This document shows positions 11,448-20,475 of a stretch of DNA of 25,734 nt, piece after piece (positions within the stretch are counted from its first letter, which is position 1; each line of letters starts with the position of its first letter). Position numbers and translations under genes: made by a program. The notes under the pieces are model-generated. The model had not been told where the DNA came from and searched no databases. It saw nothing but the letters and a program-made list of their open reading frames with translations. This DNA is from Gammaproteobacteria bacterium (GTDB lineage Bacteria > Pseudomonadota > Gammaproteobacteria > QNFN01), in the NCBI GenBank assembly GCA_036525695.1, contig DATCZX010000288.1:1-25734 (forward strand), written 5' to 3'.

Positions 11448-12215
11448 TTACGGGTTCAGCGCGCTGTAGACCGTCTGCGCGACCGGCAGCAGCTGGTCGC
11501 GGGTCAGCGGAGCGGAGAGCGCGTAGCCGAACGGGCCGTCGACCCAGTAGAACACGCCCAGGCCGTCCTGCTCGGCGAAGCGGAACGCGGTGTCACGGTT
11601 GTCGCTGACCCCGGAGCGGACGTAGAGCGTGAGCCGGCGGCCGGCGCTGTCCTGGTACATCAGCTGGGCCGCCGGGCCGTCGCTGGCCGGGAGCAGGCGC
11701 CCGCCGACCAGCTGGTAGCCGAGGCCGTCGAGCGCGGGCGCGTGCAGCGGCGCGCCGAGGCGCTTGGAGAGCCAGCCGACCAGGTGCGCCTGCTGCGCCG
11801 CGACCACCTCGACCGGGTGCAATACCTCCGGGGCGTAGACCGCGTGCGCGACCCCGGCCGGGCGCGCCAGCGCCAGCTCGAGCGCCGCACCGGCGTCACC
11901 GGCGGAGCGCGCGTGCAGCTGCCAGCCCGCCACTCCGCCGATCACGCCGCCGAGCGCCAGCCAGGCGCTGACGGCGGCGACGGCCAGGCGGCGCGGTGCG
12001 CGCGGCCGCTGCACCAGGCGCTGCGGCAACGGCGCGTCGACGACCGGGTCGAAGCTGGAGTGCAGCACGGCGTTGAGCCGCCGGTAGTCGTCGACCTGCG
12101 CGGCGACCGTCGGATGCGCGGCGAGGTACTCCTCGAGTTCGCGCCGGCGCACCGGGTCGAGCGCACCGTCGACGTACCCGTGCAGGTCGGCCTCGCTGAT
12201 CGGTCCCCGGTTCAC
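11448..12215 (-). CDS. Transmembrane anti-sigma factor (PrtR-like)
   Basis: 255 aa with a GTG start overlapping the sigma stop (GTGA). N-terminal anti-sigma domain (LHGYVDG.LD...R...LEEYL) without HxxxCxxC, one TM helix, and a periplasmic domain (AHAVYAPE..HPVEV, WLSKRLG, GGRLLP, LMYQ). Confidence 0.85.
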   Translation of the reverse strand: MNRGPISEADLHGYVDGALDPVRRRELEEYLAAHPTVAAQVDDYRRLNAVLHSSFDPVVDAPLPQRLVQRPRAPRRLAVAAVSAWLALGGVIGGVAGWQLHARSAGDAGAALELALARPAGVAHAVYAPEVLHPVEVVAAQQAHLVGWLSKRLGAPLHAPALDGLGYQLVGGRLLPASDGPAAQLMYQDSAGRRLTLYVRSGVSDNRDTAFRFAEQDGLGVFYWVDGPFGYALSAPLTRDQLLPVAQTVYSALNP

Positions 12216-12721
12216 TTGACCCTCCGCAGCCGCGGTGCACTCCCGCCGCCGAGTTCCGCGCGCAGCCGCTCGCGCGCGCGGTGCAGGCGCGACATCACCG
12301 TGCCGAGCGGCAAGTCCAGCGTCGCGGCGACCGCCTCGTAGCTGAACCCCTCGAGCGCCACCAGCAGCAACACCTGCCGCTGCGGCTCGGGCAGGCGCTG
12401 CAGCGCGCGGTCGAGATCGCGGATCTCGAGCGCCATCTCCGGCGCCTGCGGACTCGCCGCGCCCGCCCCCTCCTCGTCGAGCGGGTCCTCGGCGGGGCGG
12501 CCGCGCAGCCGGCGCACGCGGTTGGCGTTGACCCGGTGCATGATGGTGAACAGCCAGGCGCGCATGTCGCTGCCGGCGCGCCAGCGGTGCAGGCGGCTCC
12601 AGGCCCGCTCGAGGCAGTCCTGGACCAGGTCGTCGGCGCTGCCAGCCTGCCCGGTCAGCGCGCGCGCGTAGCGGCGCAGGCGCGGGATCTGTTCCAGCAG
12701 CAGGGTTTCGGCGGCGTCCAC
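12212..12721 (-). CDS. ECF RNA polymerase sigma factor (PrtI-like)
   Basis: Region 2 (IPRLRRYARAL, ADDLVQDCLERAW, RAWLFTIMH) and region 4 (LLLVALEGFSYEAVA..L..PLGTVMSRLHRAR). The start is placed at GTG 12721 (169 aa) and is less certain; the track's 12937 start overlaps the upstream gene. Confidence 0.88.
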   Translation of the reverse strand: MDAAETLLLEQIPRLRRYARALTGQAGSADDLVQDCLERAWSRLHRWRAGSDMRAWLFTIMHRVNANRVRRLRGRPAEDPLDEEGAGAASPQAPEMALEIRDLDRALQRLPEPQRQVLLLVALEGFSYEAVAATLDLPLGTVMSRLHRARERLRAELGGGSAPRLRRVK

Positions 12722-12755
12722 GGTCCCGTCATGCGCGGCTCTACCTACCCGGACA

Positions 12756-12780
12756 AACACCGGGCGGGGCGGATTATTCC
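12756..12780 (-). promoter_or_regulatory. Candidate ECF-type (possibly autoregulated) promoter
   Basis: Minus strand GGAAT (12780-12776), 17-nt spacer, GTT (12758-12756), in the short gap upstream of the sigma gene. Confidence 0.4.
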
Positions 12781-12789
12781 CGGGCCCGC

Positions 12790-13257
12790 TCAGAGCGACT
12801 CGTCGACCAGCCGGCGCAGCAGTTGCTCGATCGCCTCCAGCGGTGGCGTGGCGCCGGAGGCGGTCGGCTTGGCAAAGGCCAGGTAGACGCTGCCGGCGTC
12901 GCCGGGCAGCGTGTAGACCGCGATCCGGTACGGGCACTGCACCAGGTCGGCCGGGTTGGCCTCGACCATGCGCCGGGTCAGCAGCGCGCTGCAGAACTCG
13001 ACCACCTCGGCCTGCCCGACCGGCGAGCCGCTGAAGCCGAGATCGGGCGCGGTGCGCTCGAGCATCTCGCCGACGTGGCCGACCGTGCTGACGGTCAAGC
13101 CGGCGCCGATGATCGCCTGCTCGAGGTTGCCGCGGATGTCGGCGAATTCGCCGCCGGTGCGCGCCACCACCCGGTGGCCGTCGTCACGCCATTCCGCGGC
13201 CTGCGCGGCTGCCGTGAGCAGCCACGCCAACACGGTGCACGAAGCCCATCTGCGCAT
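12790..13257 (-). CDS. Exported DUF302-domain protein
   Basis: 155 aa from the ATG at 13257. Signal peptide ending AAAQA-A, followed by the DUF302-type motifs EFCSA...A...CPYRIAVY. Confidence 0.75.
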   Translation of the reverse strand: MRRWASCTVLAWLLTAAAQAAEWRDDGHRVVARTGGEFADIRGNLEQAIIGAGLTVSTVGHVGEMLERTAPDLGFSGSPVGQAEVVEFCSALLTRRMVEANPADLVQCPYRIAVYTLPGDAGSVYLAFAKPTASGATPPLEAIEQLLRRLVDESL

Positions 13258-13302
13258 CGTCTCGCTCCCCGGGCTGCCGGGGCGGCAGCACTGTCGATCG
13301 AG

Positions 13303-13308
13303 TATAAT
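13303..13308 (+). promoter_or_regulatory. Consensus -10 box upstream of the radical SAM-ubiUV genes
   Basis: Perfect TATAAT in GC-rich DNA, 51 nt before the ATG at 13360. No recognisable -35. Confidence 0.5.
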
Positions 13309-13359
13309 CGGCCCCCCGCAGCCCCTGCCACGCAGCCAACTCGCCCAGGCCAACGCCAG

Positions 13360-13989
13360 ATGACCGACGCCGCCCGCCAGCAGTCGCCCGCCGCGCAGAC
13401 CATCGCCTACGTGATCGAGGACCGGCTCTACCTGAACATCACCGACCGCTGCACGCTGGCCTGCCGGTTCTGCCCGAAGACCCAGGGCTCGCGGCGCGTG
13501 CACGACTACGACCTGACCCTCGACCACCGCCCCGAGTTCGACGAGGTGGTGGCGGCGATCGGCGATCCCACCGCCCATGCCGAGGTGGTGTTCTGCGGCT
13601 ACGGCGAACCGACCCTGCGGCTCGGCCTGCTGCTCGAGGTGGCGCGCTGGGTCAAGCAGCGCGGCGGCCGCGTGCGGGTCAACACCGACGGGCTGGCCAG
13701 CCTGGTGCACAAGCGCGACGTGCTGCCCGAGATGGCCGGGCTGGTCGATGCGCTGTCGGTGTCGCTGAACGCCCAGTCGCCCGAGGTCTACAACCGCCAC
13801 TGCGAACCGGCGCTGCCCGGCGCCTACCAGGCGCTGCTGGCGTTCCTGCAGGAGGCCCCGCGCTACGTGCCCGAGGTCACCGCGACGGCGATCGACGGTC
13901 TCGAGGACGTCGACATCGAGGCCTGTGCGCGCATCGCGCGGATGTGCGGCGCGCGCTTCCGTCGCCGCGAGCTCGACGTGGTCGGCTGA
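13360..13989 (+). CDS. Radical SAM protein, TatD-associated family
   Basis: 209 aa from the ATG at 13360. LYLNIT.RC motif, CxxxCxxC (CTLACRFC), EVVFCGYGEPT, RVNTDG, LSVSLNA. Confidence 0.82.
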   Translation: MTDAARQQSPAAQTIAYVIEDRLYLNITDRCTLACRFCPKTQGSRRVHDYDLTLDHRPEFDEVVAAIGDPTAHAEVVFCGYGEPTLRLGLLLEVARWVKQRGGRVRVNTDGLASLVHKRDVLPEMAGLVDALSVSLNAQSPEVYNRHCEPALPGAYQALLAFLQEAPRYVPEVTATAIDGLEDVDIEACARIARMCGARFRRRELDVVG

Positions 13990-14001
13990 GCGGAGGCCGC
14001 G

Positions 14002-14997
14002 ATGCACCTGGTCTGTCCCGCCGGCAACCTGCCCGCGCTGAAGGGCGCGGTCGACCACGGCGCCGACGCCGTCTACATGGGCTTCCGCGACGACACCAAC
14101 GCGCGCTCGTTCCCCGGCCTGAACTTCAGCGAGGGGAATGCCCGCGACGCCATCCGCTACGCCCACGCCAGGGGCGCGCAGGTGTTCGTCGCGATCAACA
14201 CCTACCCGCAGCCGGACGGCTGGTCGCGCTGGGAGGCGGCCGTCGACCACGCCGCCGAGCTCGGCGTCGACGCGCTGATCATCGCCGACATGGCGGTGCT
14301 CGACTACGCGCTGCGCACGCACCCCGGGCTGCCGCGCCACCTCTCGGTGCAGGGCTCGGCGACCAACTACGAGGCGATCCGCTTCTACCACGAGCAGTTC
14401 GGCATCCGCCGCGTGGTGCTGCCGCGCGTGCTGTCGCTGCAGCAGGTCGAGCAGGTGATCGCGCAGGTGCCGGTCGAGGTCGAGGTGTTCGGCTTCGGCG
14501 GGTTGTGCGTGATGGTCGAGGGGCGCTGCACGCTCTCCTCGTACGCCACCGGGCAGTCGCCCAACGGCTGCGGCGTCTGCTCGCCGGCCAGCGCGGTGCG
14601 CTGGCAGGAGACCGCGGCGGGGCTCGAGTCGCGCCTCGGCGGGCTGCTGATCGACCGCTACGGGCCGGGCGAGCACGCCGGCTACCCGACCGTCTGCAAG
14701 GGCCGTTACCGGGTCGGCGAGTCGACCTACTACGCGATCGAGGAGCCGAGCAGCCTGAACACGCTGGAGCTGCTGCCCGAGCTGCAGGCGATCGGGGTCA
14801 AGGCGGTGAAGATCGAGGGGCGCCAGCGCAGCCCGGCCTACGTCAAGCAGGTCACCCGGGTGTGGCGCGAGGCGCTCGACGCCGTCGCCCGCGACCCCGC
14901 GGCGTTCGTGCCGCGGCCCGAGTGGCTGGCCGCGCTCGGCAAGGTCAGCGAAGGGGCGCAGACCACCCTCGGCGCCTACCACCGGCCGTGGCAGTGA
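14002..14997 (+). CDS. ubiU: O2-independent ubiquinone biosynthesis protein UbiU (U32 family)
   Basis: 331 aa with LVCPAGNLPAL, NAR.FPGLNF, four conserved Cys (GLCVMVEGRC, GVCSP, PTVCKGR), KIEGRQRSPAYV and the C-terminal QTTLGAYHRPWQ. Confidence 0.95.
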   Translation: MHLVCPAGNLPALKGAVDHGADAVYMGFRDDTNARSFPGLNFSEGNARDAIRYAHARGAQVFVAINTYPQPDGWSRWEAAVDHAAELGVDALIIADMAVLDYALRTHPGLPRHLSVQGSATNYEAIRFYHEQFGIRRVVLPRVLSLQQVEQVIAQVPVEVEVFGFGGLCVMVEGRCTLSSYATGQSPNGCGVCSPASAVRWQETAAGLESRLGGLLIDRYGPGEHAGYPTVCKGRYRVGESTYYAIEEPSSLNTLELLPELQAIGVKAVKIEGRQRSPAYVKQVTRVWREALDAVARDPAAFVPRPEWLAALGKVSEGAQTTLGAYHRPWQ

Positions 14998-15899
14998 GCG
15001 GCCCGCGCCTGAGCCTCGGCCCGGTCCAGTACCACTGGCCGCGGGCGCGCCTCGAGGCGTTCTACGCCGAGGTCGCCGACGGCCCCGCCGCGGTGGTCTA
15101 CCTCGGCGAGACGGTCTGCTCGAAGCGCCGCGAGCTGCGCCTCGACGACTGGCTGGCGCTGGCCACGCAGCTGCAGCAGGCCGGCAAGGAGGTGGTGCTG
15201 AGCAGCCTGGCGCTGCTCGAGGCCGAGTCCGAGCTCAAGCGGCTGCGCCGGCTGTGCAGCAACGGCCGCTTCCGCGTCGAGGCCAACGACATCGGCGCGG
15301 TGCGCCTGCTGGCCGCCGAGGGGGTGCCGTTCGTCACCGGGCCGGCGGTCAACATCTACAACCAGCACACCCTCGCGCTGCTGGCGCGGCAGGGACTCTG
15401 CCGCTGGGTGATGCCGCTGGAGCTGTCGCGCGCGACGCTGGCCGGGATCCTCGCCGAGGCGCCGCCCGCGATCGAGACCGAGGTCACCGTCTACGGCCGC
15501 ATCCCGCTGGCGTGGTCGGCGCGCTGCTTCACCGCCCGGCACCACAACCTGCCCAAGGACGACTGCCGCGAGGTGTGCCGCGACTACCCCGACGGCCTGC
15601 TGGTCGAGACCCGCGAGGCGCAGCCGTTCCTGGCCTTCAACGGCATCCAGACGCAGTCCGCGCAGACCTACTCGCTGGTCGAGGAGGTCGAGGACCTGGC
15701 CGCGCTCGGCGTCGACCTGCTGCGGGTCTCGCCGCAGGCCGCGGACACCGCCACGGTGCTGGCCTGCTTCGCCGCGGTGCTGGACGGCGGGCGTGCCGCG
15801 GACGACGCCGCAGCGGAGCTGGCGGGGCTGATGCCGGTCGGCGCGTGCCGCGGTTACTGGTACGGCGAGGCCGGGATCGCCACGCCGGCCCGGGCCTGA
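14994..15899 (+). CDS. ubiV: O2-independent ubiquinone biosynthesis protein UbiV (U32 family)
   Basis: 301 aa from the GTG overlapping the ubiU stop (GTGA). LSLGPVQYHW, YLGETVCSKRR, SARCFTARH..LPKDDC...C, NGIQTQS, CRGYW motifs. Confidence 0.93.
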   Translation: MSGPRLSLGPVQYHWPRARLEAFYAEVADGPAAVVYLGETVCSKRRELRLDDWLALATQLQQAGKEVVLSSLALLEAESELKRLRRLCSNGRFRVEANDIGAVRLLAAEGVPFVTGPAVNIYNQHTLALLARQGLCRWVMPLELSRATLAGILAEAPPAIETEVTVYGRIPLAWSARCFTARHHNLPKDDCREVCRDYPDGLLVETREAQPFLAFNGIQTQSAQTYSLVEEVEDLAALGVDLLRVSPQAADTATVLACFAAVLDGGRAADDAAAELAGLMPVGACRGYWYGEAGIATPARA

Positions 15900-15932
15900 G
15901 CCGTCGACTCGAGCGGCGCGCCGCGGAGCGTG

Positions 15933-16451
15933 CTACTCCGACCCCGCGCTGGCGGCGCCGCAGACCCGGCGGTAGGCCGCCAGTGCGCCGTCGAGCCAGC
16001 GCGCCGCCGCCGGCGGCAGCTCCTCGACACCGAACTCCAGGCTGTCGAGCAGGTTCTTCAGCTGCAGCCCCAGCGCGGTGTCGCCCTCGATGCGCAGGCG
16101 GCGCTGGAAGAACAGCGTGTCGGGGTCCTCGCGCCGGGTCGCCAGCAGCAGGAAGTCGTACAGGTCGCCGCTCATGCTGACGTCCGCCGGGCGCTCGCTC
16201 TGGCCGGCGTAGAAGCCGCCGACGCCGAGGAACAGCCGGTACTCGACCCCGGTGTCGTCGACGCGGATGGCCACGGTGCGGCCGAACAGGAAATCGAGTT
16301 CCCCGTCGCGCCGCGGCGCGGCGAGGACCCGGTCCAGCACGCCGGCGAGCACGGTCGAGTGCAGCACCGCGGGGACCAGGCGGAACGGCAGCCGCAGCGG
16401 CGCCGGCAGGCGCACGGCAGGTTCGTGGGCTGGCGAGGCAGGCTGGCTCAT
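15933..16451 (-). CDS. ubiT: SCP2-domain ubiquinone accessory factor UbiT
   Basis: 172 aa from the ATG at 16451. Contains the UbiT motif EDPDTLFFQRRL.IEGDT.LGL..KN and GELDFL. Adjacent to ubiUV. Confidence 0.9.
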   Translation of the reverse strand: MSQPASPAHEPAVRLPAPLRLPFRLVPAVLHSTVLAGVLDRVLAAPRRDGELDFLFGRTVAIRVDDTGVEYRLFLGVGGFYAGQSERPADVSMSGDLYDFLLLATRREDPDTLFFQRRLRIEGDTALGLQLKNLLDSLEFGVEELPPAAARWLDGALAAYRRVCGAASAGSE

Positions 16452-16532: not shown

Positions 16533-19007
16533 ATGCCCAGCGACCGCACCGCTTTTCGCTACGACCGCCCCGGCCGCGACGCGGCCGCGCTGCGCCGCTC
16601 GATCGCCAACCACCTGACCTACACGGTGGGCAAGGACCCGATCACCGCGACCGACCGCGACTGGTTCTTCGCCCTCGCCCACGCCACCCGCGACCGCCTG
16701 GCCGAGCGCTGGATGGAGACCATGCGCCGCCTCTACCGGACCGGCACCAAGCGCGTCTACTACCTGTCGCTCGAGTACCTGATCGGCCGGCTGCTGAGCA
16801 CCGGCCTGCACAACATCGGCCTGTTCGACGAGGCGCGCGCGGCGCTCGCCGACCTCGGCCTCGATTTCGACCGCCTGCGCGCCATGGAGCCGGACGCCGC
16901 GCTCGGCAACGGCGGCCTCGGCCGCCTGGCCGCCTGCCTGCTCGACTCGATGGCGACGCTGCGCCTGCCCGGCTACGCCTACGGGATCCGCTACGAGTAC
17001 GGCATGTTCTACCAGCGCATCGTCGACGGGCAGCAGGTCGAACACCCGGAGAACTGGCTGCGCTACGGCAACCCGTGGGAGTTCGCCCGTCCCGAGGTGC
17101 TCTACCCGGTCAAGTTCGGCGGCCGCGTGCTCGACTACCGCGACGAGCAGGGGCGCGCGCGCCATCACTGGGTCGACGCCGAGGAGGTCATGGCGATGGC
17201 CTACGACACGCCGATCCCGGGCTTCGGCACCGAGACCGTGCTCAACCTGCGGCTGTGGTCGGCCAAGGCGACGCGCGACTTCGACCTCGGCTACTTCAAC
17301 GAGGGCAACTACATCCGCGCGGTGGAGGAGAAGACGCGCTCGGAGAACCTGGCGCGCGTGCTCTACCCGGTCGACACCACGCAGATGGGCCGCGAGCTGC
17401 GCCTGAAGCAGCAGTACTTCTTCGCCAGCGCGTCGCTGCAGGACATCCTGTTCCGCTTCCAGCGCCAGTTCGGCGACTTCGCCCTGCTGCCGCAGAAGGT
17501 CGCGATCCAGCTCAACGACACCCACCCGGCGATCGGCATCGCCGAGCTGATGCGGCTGCTGGTCGACGTGCACGGGCTGGACTGGGACGCGGCCTGGGCG
17601 GTGACCGTGCCGACCTTCGGCTACACCAACCACACGCTGCTGCCCGAGGCCCTGGAGGCGTGGCCGGTGACCCTGCTGGAGCGGCTGCTGCCGCGCCACC
17701 TGCAGATCATCTACCTGGTCAACCAGCAGTTCCTCGAGTCGGTGCGGCACCACTTCCCGGGCGACCCAGGGCGCCTGCGGCGGATGTCGCTGATCGACGA
17801 GGACGGCGAGCGCCGCGTGCGCATGGCGCACCTGGCCTGCGTCGGCAGCCACCGCGTGAACGGCGTCTCCGCGCTGCACACCGACCTGTTGCGCGGCTCC
17901 ACGCTGCGCGACTTCGCCGAGCTCACGCCGCAGCGCATCGTCAACGTGACCAACGGCATCACCCCGCGGCGCTGGCTCGACCTGGCCAACCCCCAGCTCT
18001 CCGCCCTGGTCACCGCGGCGATCGGCCCGGGCTGGCTGACCGATCTCGAGCGCCTCGCCACGCTCGCCCCGCTGGCCGAGGATGCCGGCTTCCGCGAGCA
18101 GTTCCGCGCGGTCAAGGCGGCGAAGAAGCGGCGCCTGTGCGCGATGATCGAGACACACCTGGGGATGAGCATCGATCCGGCGATGCTGTTCGACGTCCAG
18201 GTCAAGCGCATCCACGAGTACAAGCGGCAGCTGCTGAACCTGCTGCACGTGATCACCCTGTACCAGCGGCTGCGCGACACGCCGGGCAGCGGCAGCGTGC
18301 CGCGGCTGTGCCTGTTCGCCGGCAAGGCGGCGCCGAGCTACAGCGTCGCGAAGCAGGTGATCCGCCTGATCAATGACGTCGCCGAGGCGGTCAACAACGA
18401 CCCCGCGGTCAACGGCTCGCTGCGCGTGGTGTTCGTGCCGAACTACGACGTCTCCACCGCCACCGACGTGATCCCGGCGGCCGAGCTGTCGGAACAGATC
18501 TCGCTGGCGGGGACCGAGGCCTCGGGCACCGGCAACATGAAGCTGGCGCTGAACGGCGCGCTGACCATCGGCACCCTCGACGGCGCCAACATCGAGATCC
18601 GCAACGCCGTCGGCGCGGAGAACTTCTTCGCCTTCGGCCTCGACACCGCGGGCGTCGAGCAGCAGCGCCTCGACCCGCGCCCGGGACGCGAGATCTGCGC
18701 CGCGAACGGGGAGCTGCGCGCGGTGCTGCAGATGATCGGGGACGGCTTCTTCTCGCCGCAGGAGCCGGGGCGCCACCGCGCCCTGGTGACGCAGCTGCTC
18801 GACGGCCACGACCGCTTCCTGGTGCTCGCCGACTACGCCGACTACGTCGCCTGCCATGAGCGGGTCGTCGCGCTGTACCGGGACCCGGAGGAGTGGACGC
18901 GCCGGGCGATCCGCAACGTCGCCGCGATGGGCCGCTTCTCCAGCGACCGCACCGTGCTCGATTACGCGCGGCTGGTCTGGGGGGTCGAGGCGCTGCCGGA
19001 AGGGTGA
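16533..19007 (+). CDS. glgP: Glycogen/starch/alpha-glucan phosphorylase
   Basis: 824 aa with LGNGGLGRLAAC, GIRYEYGMF, IQLNDTHP, KRIHEYKRQLLN and the PLP-lysine motif EASGTGNMK. Confidence 0.97.
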   Translation: MPSDRTAFRYDRPGRDAAALRRSIANHLTYTVGKDPITATDRDWFFALAHATRDRLAERWMETMRRLYRTGTKRVYYLSLEYLIGRLLSTGLHNIGLFDEARAALADLGLDFDRLRAMEPDAALGNGGLGRLAACLLDSMATLRLPGYAYGIRYEYGMFYQRIVDGQQVEHPENWLRYGNPWEFARPEVLYPVKFGGRVLDYRDEQGRARHHWVDAEEVMAMAYDTPIPGFGTETVLNLRLWSAKATRDFDLGYFNEGNYIRAVEEKTRSENLARVLYPVDTTQMGRELRLKQQYFFASASLQDILFRFQRQFGDFALLPQKVAIQLNDTHPAIGIAELMRLLVDVHGLDWDAAWAVTVPTFGYTNHTLLPEALEAWPVTLLERLLPRHLQIIYLVNQQFLESVRHHFPGDPGRLRRMSLIDEDGERRVRMAHLACVGSHRVNGVSALHTDLLRGSTLRDFAELTPQRIVNVTNGITPRRWLDLANPQLSALVTAAIGPGWLTDLERLATLAPLAEDAGFREQFRAVKAAKKRRLCAMIETHLGMSIDPAMLFDVQVKRIHEYKRQLLNLLHVITLYQRLRDTPGSGSVPRLCLFAGKAAPSYSVAKQVIRLINDVAEAVNNDPAVNGSLRVVFVPNYDVSTATDVIPAAELSEQISLAGTEASGTGNMKLALNGALTIGTLDGANIEIRNAVGAENFFAFGLDTAGVEQQRLDPRPGREICAANGELRAVLQMIGDGFFSPQEPGRHRALVTQLLDGHDRFLVLADYADYVACHERVVALYRDPEEWTRRAIRNVAAMGRFSSDRTVLDYARLVWGVEALPEG

Positions 19008-19017
19008 CGCGACGCGC

Positions 19018-20274
<1,257 letters not shown>

Positions 20275-20419
20275 GATTTGGCGTTCACGGGATTCCAGGA
20301 ATGGATCTCCAGGCGCGAATGGCCTGGTGGGGCATGCGGTGAGAGAGAGTGTCGGGCTTGGGGGCAGGAGGCCTGCCTGCCGGGGCGCTACTCTGGGCGC
20401 CCTTACAAGAAGCTGGTGA

Positions 20420-20448
20420 AAACTAGCATGTAACCAGGGCCAGGTCCA
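20420..20448 (-). promoter_or_regulatory. Candidate internal rho promoter in the trxA-rho spacer
   Basis: Minus strand TGGACC, 17-nt spacer ending TGC, TAGTTT. This resembles my recollection of the E. coli rho promoter (TGGACG-N17-TAACTT), which should be confirmed by alignment. Confidence 0.55.
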
Positions 20449-20475
20449 GCCTGCCAACCGGGCCCGGAACGGGTT

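What the first reader, a model, noticed from the sequence alone, without database searches (positions are those of the whole stretch)
13273..15899. TatD-associated-type radical SAM gene without tatD, heading the ubiU-ubiV operon
Seen: the radical SAM gene (intact CTLACRFC) ends 12 nt before ubiU, and ubiU overlaps ubiV. A perfect TATAAT precedes all three, with a 7-bp inverted repeat (13273-13289) where a -35 would be. No tatD is in the window. Known: this family is defined by adjacency or fusion to TatD and has no established function. UbiU and UbiV are 4Fe-4S proteins performing O2-independent hydroxylation. Inference: the radical SAM may be an unrecognised accessory factor or co-regulated partner of anaerobic ubiquinone synthesis or of U32-type hydroxylation. 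This is the best candidate for an undescribed functional link here.
Basis: partly seen in the sequence, partly recalled or inferred. Interest (0 to 1): 0.62.

Follow-up and report, generated by a model that had tools for sequence, protein, structure and literature searches.

The report
Orphan radical SAM gene heading ubiUV operon
A small radical SAM gene of unknown function is the first gene of the operon for oxygen-independent ubiquinone synthesis here and in about 19 other gammaproteobacterial families, which marks it as an anaerobically expressed gene but does not show that it helps to make ubiquinone.

Summary
A 209-aa TIGR04038 radical SAM gene (RS, 13360-13989) ends 12 nt before ubiU. 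ubiU overlaps ubiV by 4 nt. A TATAAT lies upstream, and no TatD gene is in the window.

The adjacency is not confined to close relatives. In an even sample of 400 genomes of the class, 58 carry RS and 42 of those also carry ubiU. In 25 of them, from about 19 families, RS lies within 6 kb of ubiU, in several different arrangements. An FNR-type box precedes RS in 15 of 24 linked loci. Sediment metatranscriptome contigs begin just after the TATAAT, and one bridges RS and ubiU.

The evidence favours co-regulation over a shared pathway:
- 57 of 99 ubiU genomes lack RS.
- 16 of 58 RS genomes lack ubiU.
- RS domains 51-60% identical are fused to a TatD hydrolase in Magnetococcia; close relatives of that fusion protein occur in lineages that do not make ubiquinone.
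- A second radical SAM gene (YhcC/MnmL), reported to be an anaerobic tRNA-modification enzyme, sits in the same operon in many genomes.

RS is most likely another oxygen-independent enzyme riding an anaerobic operon. Its substrate is unknown. This scan had already noted the same layout in another genome.

The parts
12790..13257 (-). Divergent upstream gene: a 155-aa protein with a signal-peptide-like N-terminus. Its relatives match DUF302 weakly.
   Evidence: Translated. No family hit for the window copy. A relative in the same ORF cluster hits DUF302. It is conserved next to RS in the window's family and in G082 and G142.
13273..13289 (.). Perfect 7-bp inverted repeat, GCTGCCG-3 nt-CGGCAGC
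   Evidence: Found. It is not conserved in the three family relatives examined, so it is probably chance.
13303..13308 (+). TATAAT, a likely -10 element, part of a conserved GAGTATAAT
   Evidence: Read. Conserved in L093, L094 and L095. RNA-library contigs begin at 13323 and 13329, and depth is zero at 13148-13284 in all four runs. No -35 hexamer and no FNR box.
13360..13989 (+). RS: a 209-aa radical SAM protein of family TIGR04038. It has CX3CX2C at C31/C35/C38 and further conserved C79, H147, C148 and C189.
   Evidence: The AlphaFold model has mean pLDDT 93. The PDB fold search returns only generic radical SAM cores.
13992..13996 (+). GGAGG ribosome-binding site for ubiU, inside the 12-nt gap between RS and ubiU
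   Evidence: Sequence.
14002..14997 (+). ubiU, a U32-family O2-independent hydroxylase subunit
   Evidence: NF047963 at 564 bits, cut-off 440. Cys 169/176/193/232 are present.
14994..15899 (+). ubiV, the partner subunit, with a GTG start overlapping the ubiU stop (GTGA)
   Evidence: NF047965 at 402 bits, cut-off 275. The CXnCX12CX3C motif is present.
15933..16451 (-). ubiT, the SCP2-domain accessory factor, convergent with ubiV
   Evidence: NF047962 at 132 bits (cut-off 46.9) and Pfam SCP2. The convergent position is conserved in 20 loci of the class sample.

Best explanation
RS is an oxygen-sensitive radical SAM enzyme that belongs to the anaerobic gene set of these sulfur-oxidising, nitrate-respiring Gammaproteobacteria. 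Here it is transcribed from one promoter together with ubiU and ubiV.

Shown: the three genes form a tight operon-like block; the block recurs in many families; in most other families it sits behind an FNR/ANR-type box; and it is present in sediment RNA libraries.

Inferred: RS carries out a reaction of its own that is not part of ubiquinone synthesis. It is kept in this operon because both functions are needed only without oxygen. YhcC/MnmL occupies the same operon in many genomes for the same reason. YhcC/MnmL is the radical SAM enzyme reported to replace the oxygen-dependent MnmC in tRNA modification.

Inferred from the fusions with a YcfH-type TatD hydrolase in other lineages: the reaction probably acts on a nucleic acid or nucleotide substrate, together with that hydrolase, which this genome encodes elsewhere. 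The substrate is not known.
For: 1. The block is tight: a 12-nt gap with GGAGG, then a 4-nt overlap.
2. In the class sample, RS was found in 58 of 400 genomes and ubiU in 99 of 400. RS lies within 6 kb of ubiU in 25 genomes of about 19 families. Arrangements seen are RS-ubiU-ubiV, RS-R2-ubiU-ubiV, divergent RS/ubiT-ubiU, and ubiU-ubiV-RS. R2 is the second radical SAM gene, YhcC/MnmL (TIGR01212).
3. An FNR-type box (TTGA-N6-TCAA) lies 31-133 nt before RS in 15 of 24 linked loci and 8 of 31 unlinked loci. Background is 0.015 per 220 nt.
4. RNA-library contigs start 15-21 nt after the TATAAT, and one bridges RS and ubiU.
5. RS and ubiU are separable: 57 of 99 ubiU genomes lack RS, and 16 of 58 RS genomes lack ubiU.
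6. RS domains 51-60% identical are fused to TatD in Magnetococcia (28 of 28 loci). Four of five such genomes carry ubiU far from RS. Fusions also occur in Nitrospirota, Thermodesulfovibrionales and Deltaproteobacteria.
7. On the RS tree, linked and unlinked gamma rows are intermixed, needing 18 changes for 25 linked rows.
8. R2 lies directly upstream of ubiU in at least 50 of 68 genomes that carry it. YhcC is reported to be the FNR-activated anaerobic replacement of MnmC (bioRxiv 10.64898/2026.05.18.725915).
9. Where RS is not next to ubiU, it sits by moaA, napFAGH or Crp/Fnr regulator genes.
10. In one conserved frame (HDOD gene-RS), the downstream slot holds either R2-ubiUV or other genes. 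The ubiUV module therefore moves independently of RS.
Against: - Adjacency in 25 of the 42 genomes that have both genes, kept through rearrangements and with coupling-scale gaps, is also what a true pathway partner would show.
- In genomes without R2 (the window's family, G085, G118, G201, G359), RS sits directly before ubiU.
- No substrate, partner or aerobic counterpart of RS has been identified.
- The window's own family has no FNR box, so anaerobic control is not shown for this genome.
- Contigs from RNA libraries cannot prove a single transcript.
- Related genomes are not independent, so the raw counts overstate the support.
Confidence: 0.55

Rival explanations
1. RS is a lineage-specific accessory enzyme of O2-independent ubiquinone synthesis. 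It might start or support the UbiU-UbiV hydroxylations, supply or recycle their oxygen donor, or mature a cofactor used by the pathway without oxygen.
For: - RS is the first gene of the ubiUV operon in about 19 families, and it sits directly before ubiU where R2 is absent.
- 42 of 58 RS genomes have ubiU, against 57 of 342 RS-negative genomes.
- The FNR box in front of RS serves the whole block.
- RNA contigs cover RS and ubiU together.
Against: - UbiUVT works without RS in E. coli, where the three genes were defined (PMC6747719). The control search finds no TIGR04038 member in E. coli.
- 57 of 99 ubiU genomes lack RS, and 16 of 58 RS genomes lack ubiU.
- The family is fused to TatD in lineages that, by established knowledge, make menaquinone rather than ubiquinone.
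- No long branch separates the gamma RS proteins from the fused ones.
- Linked and unlinked RS proteins intermix on the tree.
Confidence: 0.25
2. RS is a maturase or helper for the molybdenum or Fe-S enzymes of nitrate respiration, and is only secondarily near ubiUV.
For: - RS lies beside moaA in six loci of the class sample, and in further named loci.
- RS lies upstream of napF-napA-napG-napH in Thiolapillus and Sedimenticola MAGs.
- Weak HMM similarity to MoaA and to a tungsten-cofactor maturase.
- MoaA is among the fold matches.
- Earlier scan note e1-957696 describes a similar gene between napF and moaA.
Against: - This context is rarer than the ubiUV context.
- The family's most widespread association is with a TatD hydrolase downstream of metG, not with molybdenum enzymes.
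- The HMM and fold similarities are generic radical SAM core matches.
Confidence: 0.1
3. The adjacency is inherited gene order with no selective meaning. RS and ubiUV are neighbours by descent in a group of related sulfur oxidisers.
For: - In the named set only 24 of 80 loci keep ubiU or R2 within 6 kb.
- The HDOD-RS frame stays while the downstream genes change.
- G142 has RS-DUF302-glgP-rho, the window's surroundings but with the DUF302-like gene on the other side of RS, without ubiUV.
Against: - The neighbourhood survives in about 19 families, in four different arrangements and in both gene orders.
- Short gaps and a shared FNR box point to maintained co-expression.
Confidence: 0.1

Closest known systems
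TIGR04038, TatD family nuclease-associated radical SAM protein (NCBIfam)
   Same: Full-length HMM match at 270 bits. CX3CX2C motif near the N-terminus. About 200 aa. The RS domain is 51-60% identical to the TatD-fused proteins of Magnetococcia.
   Different: It is stand-alone here. No TatD gene lies within 8 kb in any of the 58 genomes of the class that carry RS. It sits in an anaerobic-respiration context (ubiUV, nap, moaA), often behind an FNR box.
ubiT-ubiU-ubiV loci of E. coli and other proteobacteria (Pelosi et al. 2019, PMC6747719)
   Same: ubiU and ubiV are adjacent and ubiT is beside them. The cluster cysteines are conserved. Equivalog HMM scores are above their cut-offs.
   Different: That study looked only at the relative positions of ubiT, ubiU and ubiV. 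Here the operon is headed by an extra radical SAM gene, and in many relatives by two.
YhcC/MnmL (TIGR01212), reported as the FNR-activated anaerobic replacement of MnmC in E. coli (bioRxiv 10.64898/2026.05.18.725915)
   Same: It is a radical SAM enzyme under FNR control that supplies an oxygen-free route for an otherwise oxygen-dependent step. In this class it shares the ubiUV operon with RS.
   Different: It is a different family, about 310 aa with a Radical_SAM_C domain. It was not found in the window's genome or in the three genomes of its family that were searched. The preprint reports arcB, not ubiUV, as its neighbour.
Small radical SAM enzymes with solved structures (PFL activase, NifB core, TYW1, QueE, MoaA, viperin)
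   Same: A minimal partial-barrel radical SAM core of similar size. Foldseek probability is 1.0.
   Different: TM-scores are only 0.55-0.68 and identity 15-21%. No match is specific enough to transfer a substrate.

Membership tests
TIGR04038 (tatD_link_rSAM) | HMM score above the curated cut-off of 129.7 bits | tested here: met
   270 bits over residues 14-206, covering profile positions 1-192 of 192.
TIGR04038 (tatD_link_rSAM) | Radical SAM CX3CX2C cluster motif | tested here: met
   C31, C35 and C38 are invariant in a 45-sequence alignment. Pfam Radical_SAM at 49.5 bits.
TIGR04038 (tatD_link_rSAM) | Adjacency to or fusion with a TatD-family hydrolase (the feature behind the family's name) | tested here: not met
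   No TatD gene in the window. The genome's three TatD genes are on other contigs. None lies within 8 kb of RS in the 58 genomes of the class. The feature is met in 28 of 28 loci of the other class, Magnetococcia going by G408.
TIGR04100 (rSAM_pair_X) | HMM score above the cut-off of 262 bits | tested here: not met
   170.5 bits. It is a related family, but RS is not a member.
UbiU (NF047963) | Equivalog HMM above 440 bits, and the four cluster cysteines | tested here: met
   564 bits. C169, C176, C193 and C232 are at the E. coli positions.
UbiV (NF047965) | Equivalog HMM above 275 bits, and the CXnCX12CX3C motif | tested here: met
   402 bits. C42, C178, C191 and C195.
UbiT (NF047962) | SCP2-domain equivalog HMM above 46.9 bits, encoded beside ubiUV | tested here: met
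   132 bits, Pfam SCP2 at 64.6 bits, 33 nt after ubiV on the opposite strand.
O2-independent ubiquinone pathway (as a functional member, for RS) | Loss of anoxic UQ synthesis when the gene is removed | not testable with these tools
   Only comparative data are available. RS is absent from 57 of 99 ubiU genomes, and 16 of 58 RS genomes lack ubiU.

The most novel reading that the evidence does not exclude
In non-enteric Gammaproteobacteria the O2-independent ubiquinone pathway has extra, unrecognised radical SAM components. RS (and possibly the YhcC-type enzyme) would take part directly in, or be required for, UbiU-UbiV hydroxylation in these organisms. That would bring radical chemistry into a reaction whose mechanism is still open.
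Probability: 0.2. Interest if true: 0.8.

Novelty: new variant of a known kind. Interest (0 to 1): 0.55.

Why it matters
TIGR04038 and its TatD fusions form a large family: the fused query alone returned 7,983 proteins at E <= 1e-30. No function is known for it. Finding it as the lead gene of an FNR-type anaerobic operon gives the first physiological handle: express or delete it under anoxia, and look for an oxygen-dependent counterpart.

For ubiquinone research, the result shows that ubiUV operons outside the enterics usually carry one or two radical SAM genes. Neither the 2019 survey of ubiTUV loci nor any paper found in the searches run here mentions this. If RS or the YhcC-type gene proved necessary for anoxic UQ synthesis, the pathway's parts list would change. 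If not, the operon is a clear case of unrelated oxygen-free bypass enzymes gathered under one anaerobic promoter.

Tried and rejected
- The PDB fold search of a confident RS model gave only generic radical SAM cores, so no substrate can be inferred.
- The ESM Atlas search returned only the protein's own family and TIGR04100.
- The literature searches found nothing linking RS to ubiquinone. 'TIGR04038' gave 0 papers. 'TatD + radical SAM + fused' gave 0. 'yhcC + ubiquinone' gave 3 irrelevant papers. 'UbiU + UbiV + radical SAM' gave one review.
- The 7-bp inverted repeat was rejected as an operator because it is not conserved in the three family relatives examined.
- An FNR box was sought in the window's own promoter. 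The best match has 4 mismatches, so none is present.
- TatD was sought next to RS in the class with three TatD queries from the window's own genome. There were no hits within 8 kb. Very divergent TatD relatives could have been missed.
- The idea that the gene between RS and ubiU in relatives is a TatD was rejected. It is a TIGR01212 radical SAM gene.
Full report
**What is in the window**

The window is contig C288 of a 2.6-Mb, 466-contig metagenome-assembled genome with about 71% G+C. Because of the high G+C, genes were called from the third-position G+C pattern.

Around the finding the order is as follows:

| Coordinates | Strand | Gene |
|---|---|---|
| 11448-12215 | - | anti-sigma-like gene |
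| 12212-12937 | - | ECF sigma factor |
| 12790-13257 | - | small secreted protein, no family hit for this copy |
| 13258-13359 | | 102-nt intergenic region |
| 13360-13989 | + | RS |
| 14002-14997 | + | ubiU |
| 14994-15899 | + | ubiV |
| 15933-16451 | - | ubiT |
| 16533-19007 | + | glycogen phosphorylase |
| 19018-20457 | - | rho |

- RS scores 270 bits on TIGR04038 (cut-off 129.7).
- ubiU, ubiV and ubiT all pass their NCBIfam equivalog cut-offs.
- UbiU and UbiV keep the cysteines shown to bind their 4Fe-4S clusters in E. coli (PMC6747719).

**Is the adjacency wider than this genome?**

Yes. RS-ubiU-ubiV, with the same divergent small gene where the contig reaches that far, is present in all six genomes of the window's family that were searched.

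In an even sample of 400 genomes of the class:
- TIGR04038 members above the cut-off occur in 58 genomes.
- UbiU occurs in 99 genomes.
- I compared coordinates by hand. Of the 58 RS genomes, 42 have UbiU, against 57 of the 342 RS-negative genomes.
- In 25 genomes, from about 19 family codes, RS lies within 6 kb of ubiU on the same contig.

I fetched 8 kb on each side of RS and clustered the ORFs. Four arrangements appear:
- RS-ubiU-ubiV.
- RS-R2-ubiU-ubiV, the commonest.
- RS divergent from ubiT-ubiU.
- ubiU-ubiV-RS.

ubiT is usually convergent after ubiV. Of the 17 genomes with both genes unlinked, three have them far apart on one contig. Most of the rest have enough flank to exclude adjacency, and about three contigs are too short to judge.

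A second set of 80 named loci gave ubiU or R2 within 6 kb in 24 loci. That set covers Sedimenticola, Candidatus Thiodiazotropha, Thiolapillus, Chromatiaceae, Arenicellales and a Lamellibrachia endosymbiont.

**The second radical SAM gene**

R2 is a TIGR01212 protein of the MnmL/YtqA/YhcC family, at 381 bits.
- In the same 400-genome sample it occurs in 68 genomes, and 67 of these have UbiU.
- In at least 50 of them it lies immediately upstream of ubiU, including many genomes without RS.
- It was not found in the window's genome or in the three genomes of its family that were searched.
- A 2026 preprint reports that E. coli YhcC is FNR-activated and replaces the oxygen-dependent MnmC in mnm5s2U tRNA modification during anaerobic growth.
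- That preprint does not mention ubiUV.

So ubiUV operons in this class carry an enzyme that, on present evidence, has nothing to do with ubiquinone and shares only the need for anoxic expression.

**Regulation and expression**

- A TTGA-N6-TCAA box of the FNR/ANR type lies 31-133 nt before the RS start in 15 of 24 linked loci.
- The same box occurs in 8 of 31 unlinked gamma loci.
- Background is 0.015 per 220 nt in the fetched DNA.
- The window's family has no such box; the best match has 4 mismatches.
- That family does share a GAGTATAAT element.

Four sediment metatranscriptome runs hold the locus. Their contigs behave as follows:
- None of the four runs covers 13148-13284.
- Contigs begin at 13323 and 13329, which is 15-21 nt after the TATAAT.
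- One contig (13725-14099) bridges RS and ubiU, and another bridges ubiU and ubiV.

This fits one transcript from the TATAAT promoter. Assembled contigs from RNA libraries cannot prove a single molecule.

**What RS is likely to do**

- The AlphaFold model is confident, with mean pLDDT 93. It matches only generic radical SAM cores: TYW1, NifB, PFL activase, RlmN, MoaA, QueE and viperin. TM-scores reach at most 0.68.
- Besides the SAM cluster cysteines, C79, H147 and C189 are invariant and C148 is nearly so. A second metal site is possible but untested.
- At phylum level, all 28 loci of another class that were checked carry RS directly after a YcfH-type TatD hydrolase. All but one have an open frame of 450 aa or more, which implies a fusion. 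The RS part is 51-60% identical to the window's protein.
- That class is taken to be Magnetococcia, because G408, the one genome named, is Magnetococcus marinus MC-1. Close relatives of its fusion protein are also found in Nitrospirota, Thermodesulfovibrionales and Deltaproteobacteria.
- Four of five fusion genomes of that class that were tested have ubiU, but far from RS.
- On the RS tree the fused proteins form one well-supported group. Linked and unlinked gamma proteins are intermixed, and no long branch marks a change of function.
- Within a conserved frame (ruv genes, HDOD gene, RS), the slot after RS holds one of several gene sets. These include R2-ubiU-ubiV(-ubiT), a TauD-like gene with a GBBH_N/ThiS gene, and a nap operon.
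- G142 has RS, the DUF302-like gene, glgP and rho, the window's surroundings with the DUF302-like gene on the other side of RS, and no ubiUV between RS and glgP.

The ubiUV module therefore moves relative to RS.

**Verdict**

What the data support is shared anaerobic expression. RS is neither necessary for nor restricted to UbiUV organisms, and its family is older and wider than ubiquinone synthesis.

| Reading | Probability |
|---|---|
| RS is an independent oxygen-free enzyme riding the anaerobic ubiUV operon | 0.55 |
| RS is a true accessory role in anoxic UQ synthesis | 0.25 |
| RS has a role in nitrate-reductase or molybdenum-cofactor maturation | 0.1 |
| The adjacency is neutral inherited synteny | 0.1 |

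No paper found in the searches run here describes the RS-ubiUV or R2-ubiUV linkage. This scan had already noted the same layout in another genome (e1-3346781).

Noticed in passing
Not in the window; e.g. L022:2177-3133 (+). Coordinates for the class sample are.: A TIGR01212 (YhcC/MnmL) radical SAM gene lies directly upstream of ubiU in at least 50 of the 68 genomes that carry it. 67 of those 68 genomes have UbiU. This link is tighter than the RS-ubiU link, and neither the YhcC preprint nor the 2019 ubiTUV survey reports it.
   Followed up: partly
L043:3807-5459 (+); also in L050, L062, L074, L078 and L128: A 550-aa protein with a lipoate-protein-ligase-like catalytic domain and DUF116 sits between ubiV and ubiT in several families. 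It is another unexplained passenger or partner of the ubiUVT cluster.
   Followed up: partly
L177:6600-7469 (+) and L175:7495-8139 (+); also after ubiT in L155 and L204: A TauD-family dioxygenase gene and a GBBH-like_N + ThiS gene follow RS directly in 16 named loci, mostly Sedimenticola and Thiolapillus-type MAGs. In other loci they follow the ubiUVT block. An oxygen-dependent dioxygenase beside an oxygen-sensitive radical SAM gene could be an aerobic/anaerobic pair. This was not tested.
   Followed up: no
window 11448-13257 (-): An ECF sigma factor, an anti-sigma-like gene and a small DUF302-like secreted protein lie divergently upstream of RS. The small gene is conserved next to RS in the family and in two other families. 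The ECF sigma ORF as listed (12212-12937) overlaps the end of the small gene (12790), so its true start is probably further downstream.
   Followed up: partly
window 15276-16242: One RNA-library contig (run X15) spans the 3' end of ubiV and most of the convergent ubiT. The simple scan finds no terminator between them. The convergent transcripts may overlap.
   Followed up: no
window 13366, 13643, 15260: Several RNA-library contigs match up to these points and then continue with unrelated sequence. This suggests related strains with different flanks, or chimeric contigs, in the same sediments.
   Followed up: no
L067 (G142:C43): A genome of another family has RS, the DUF302-like gene, glycogen phosphorylase and rho, the window's neighbours with the DUF302-like gene on the other side of RS, but without ubiU-ubiV-ubiT. 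Its R2 and ubiU lie at the ends of other contigs.
   Followed up: partly
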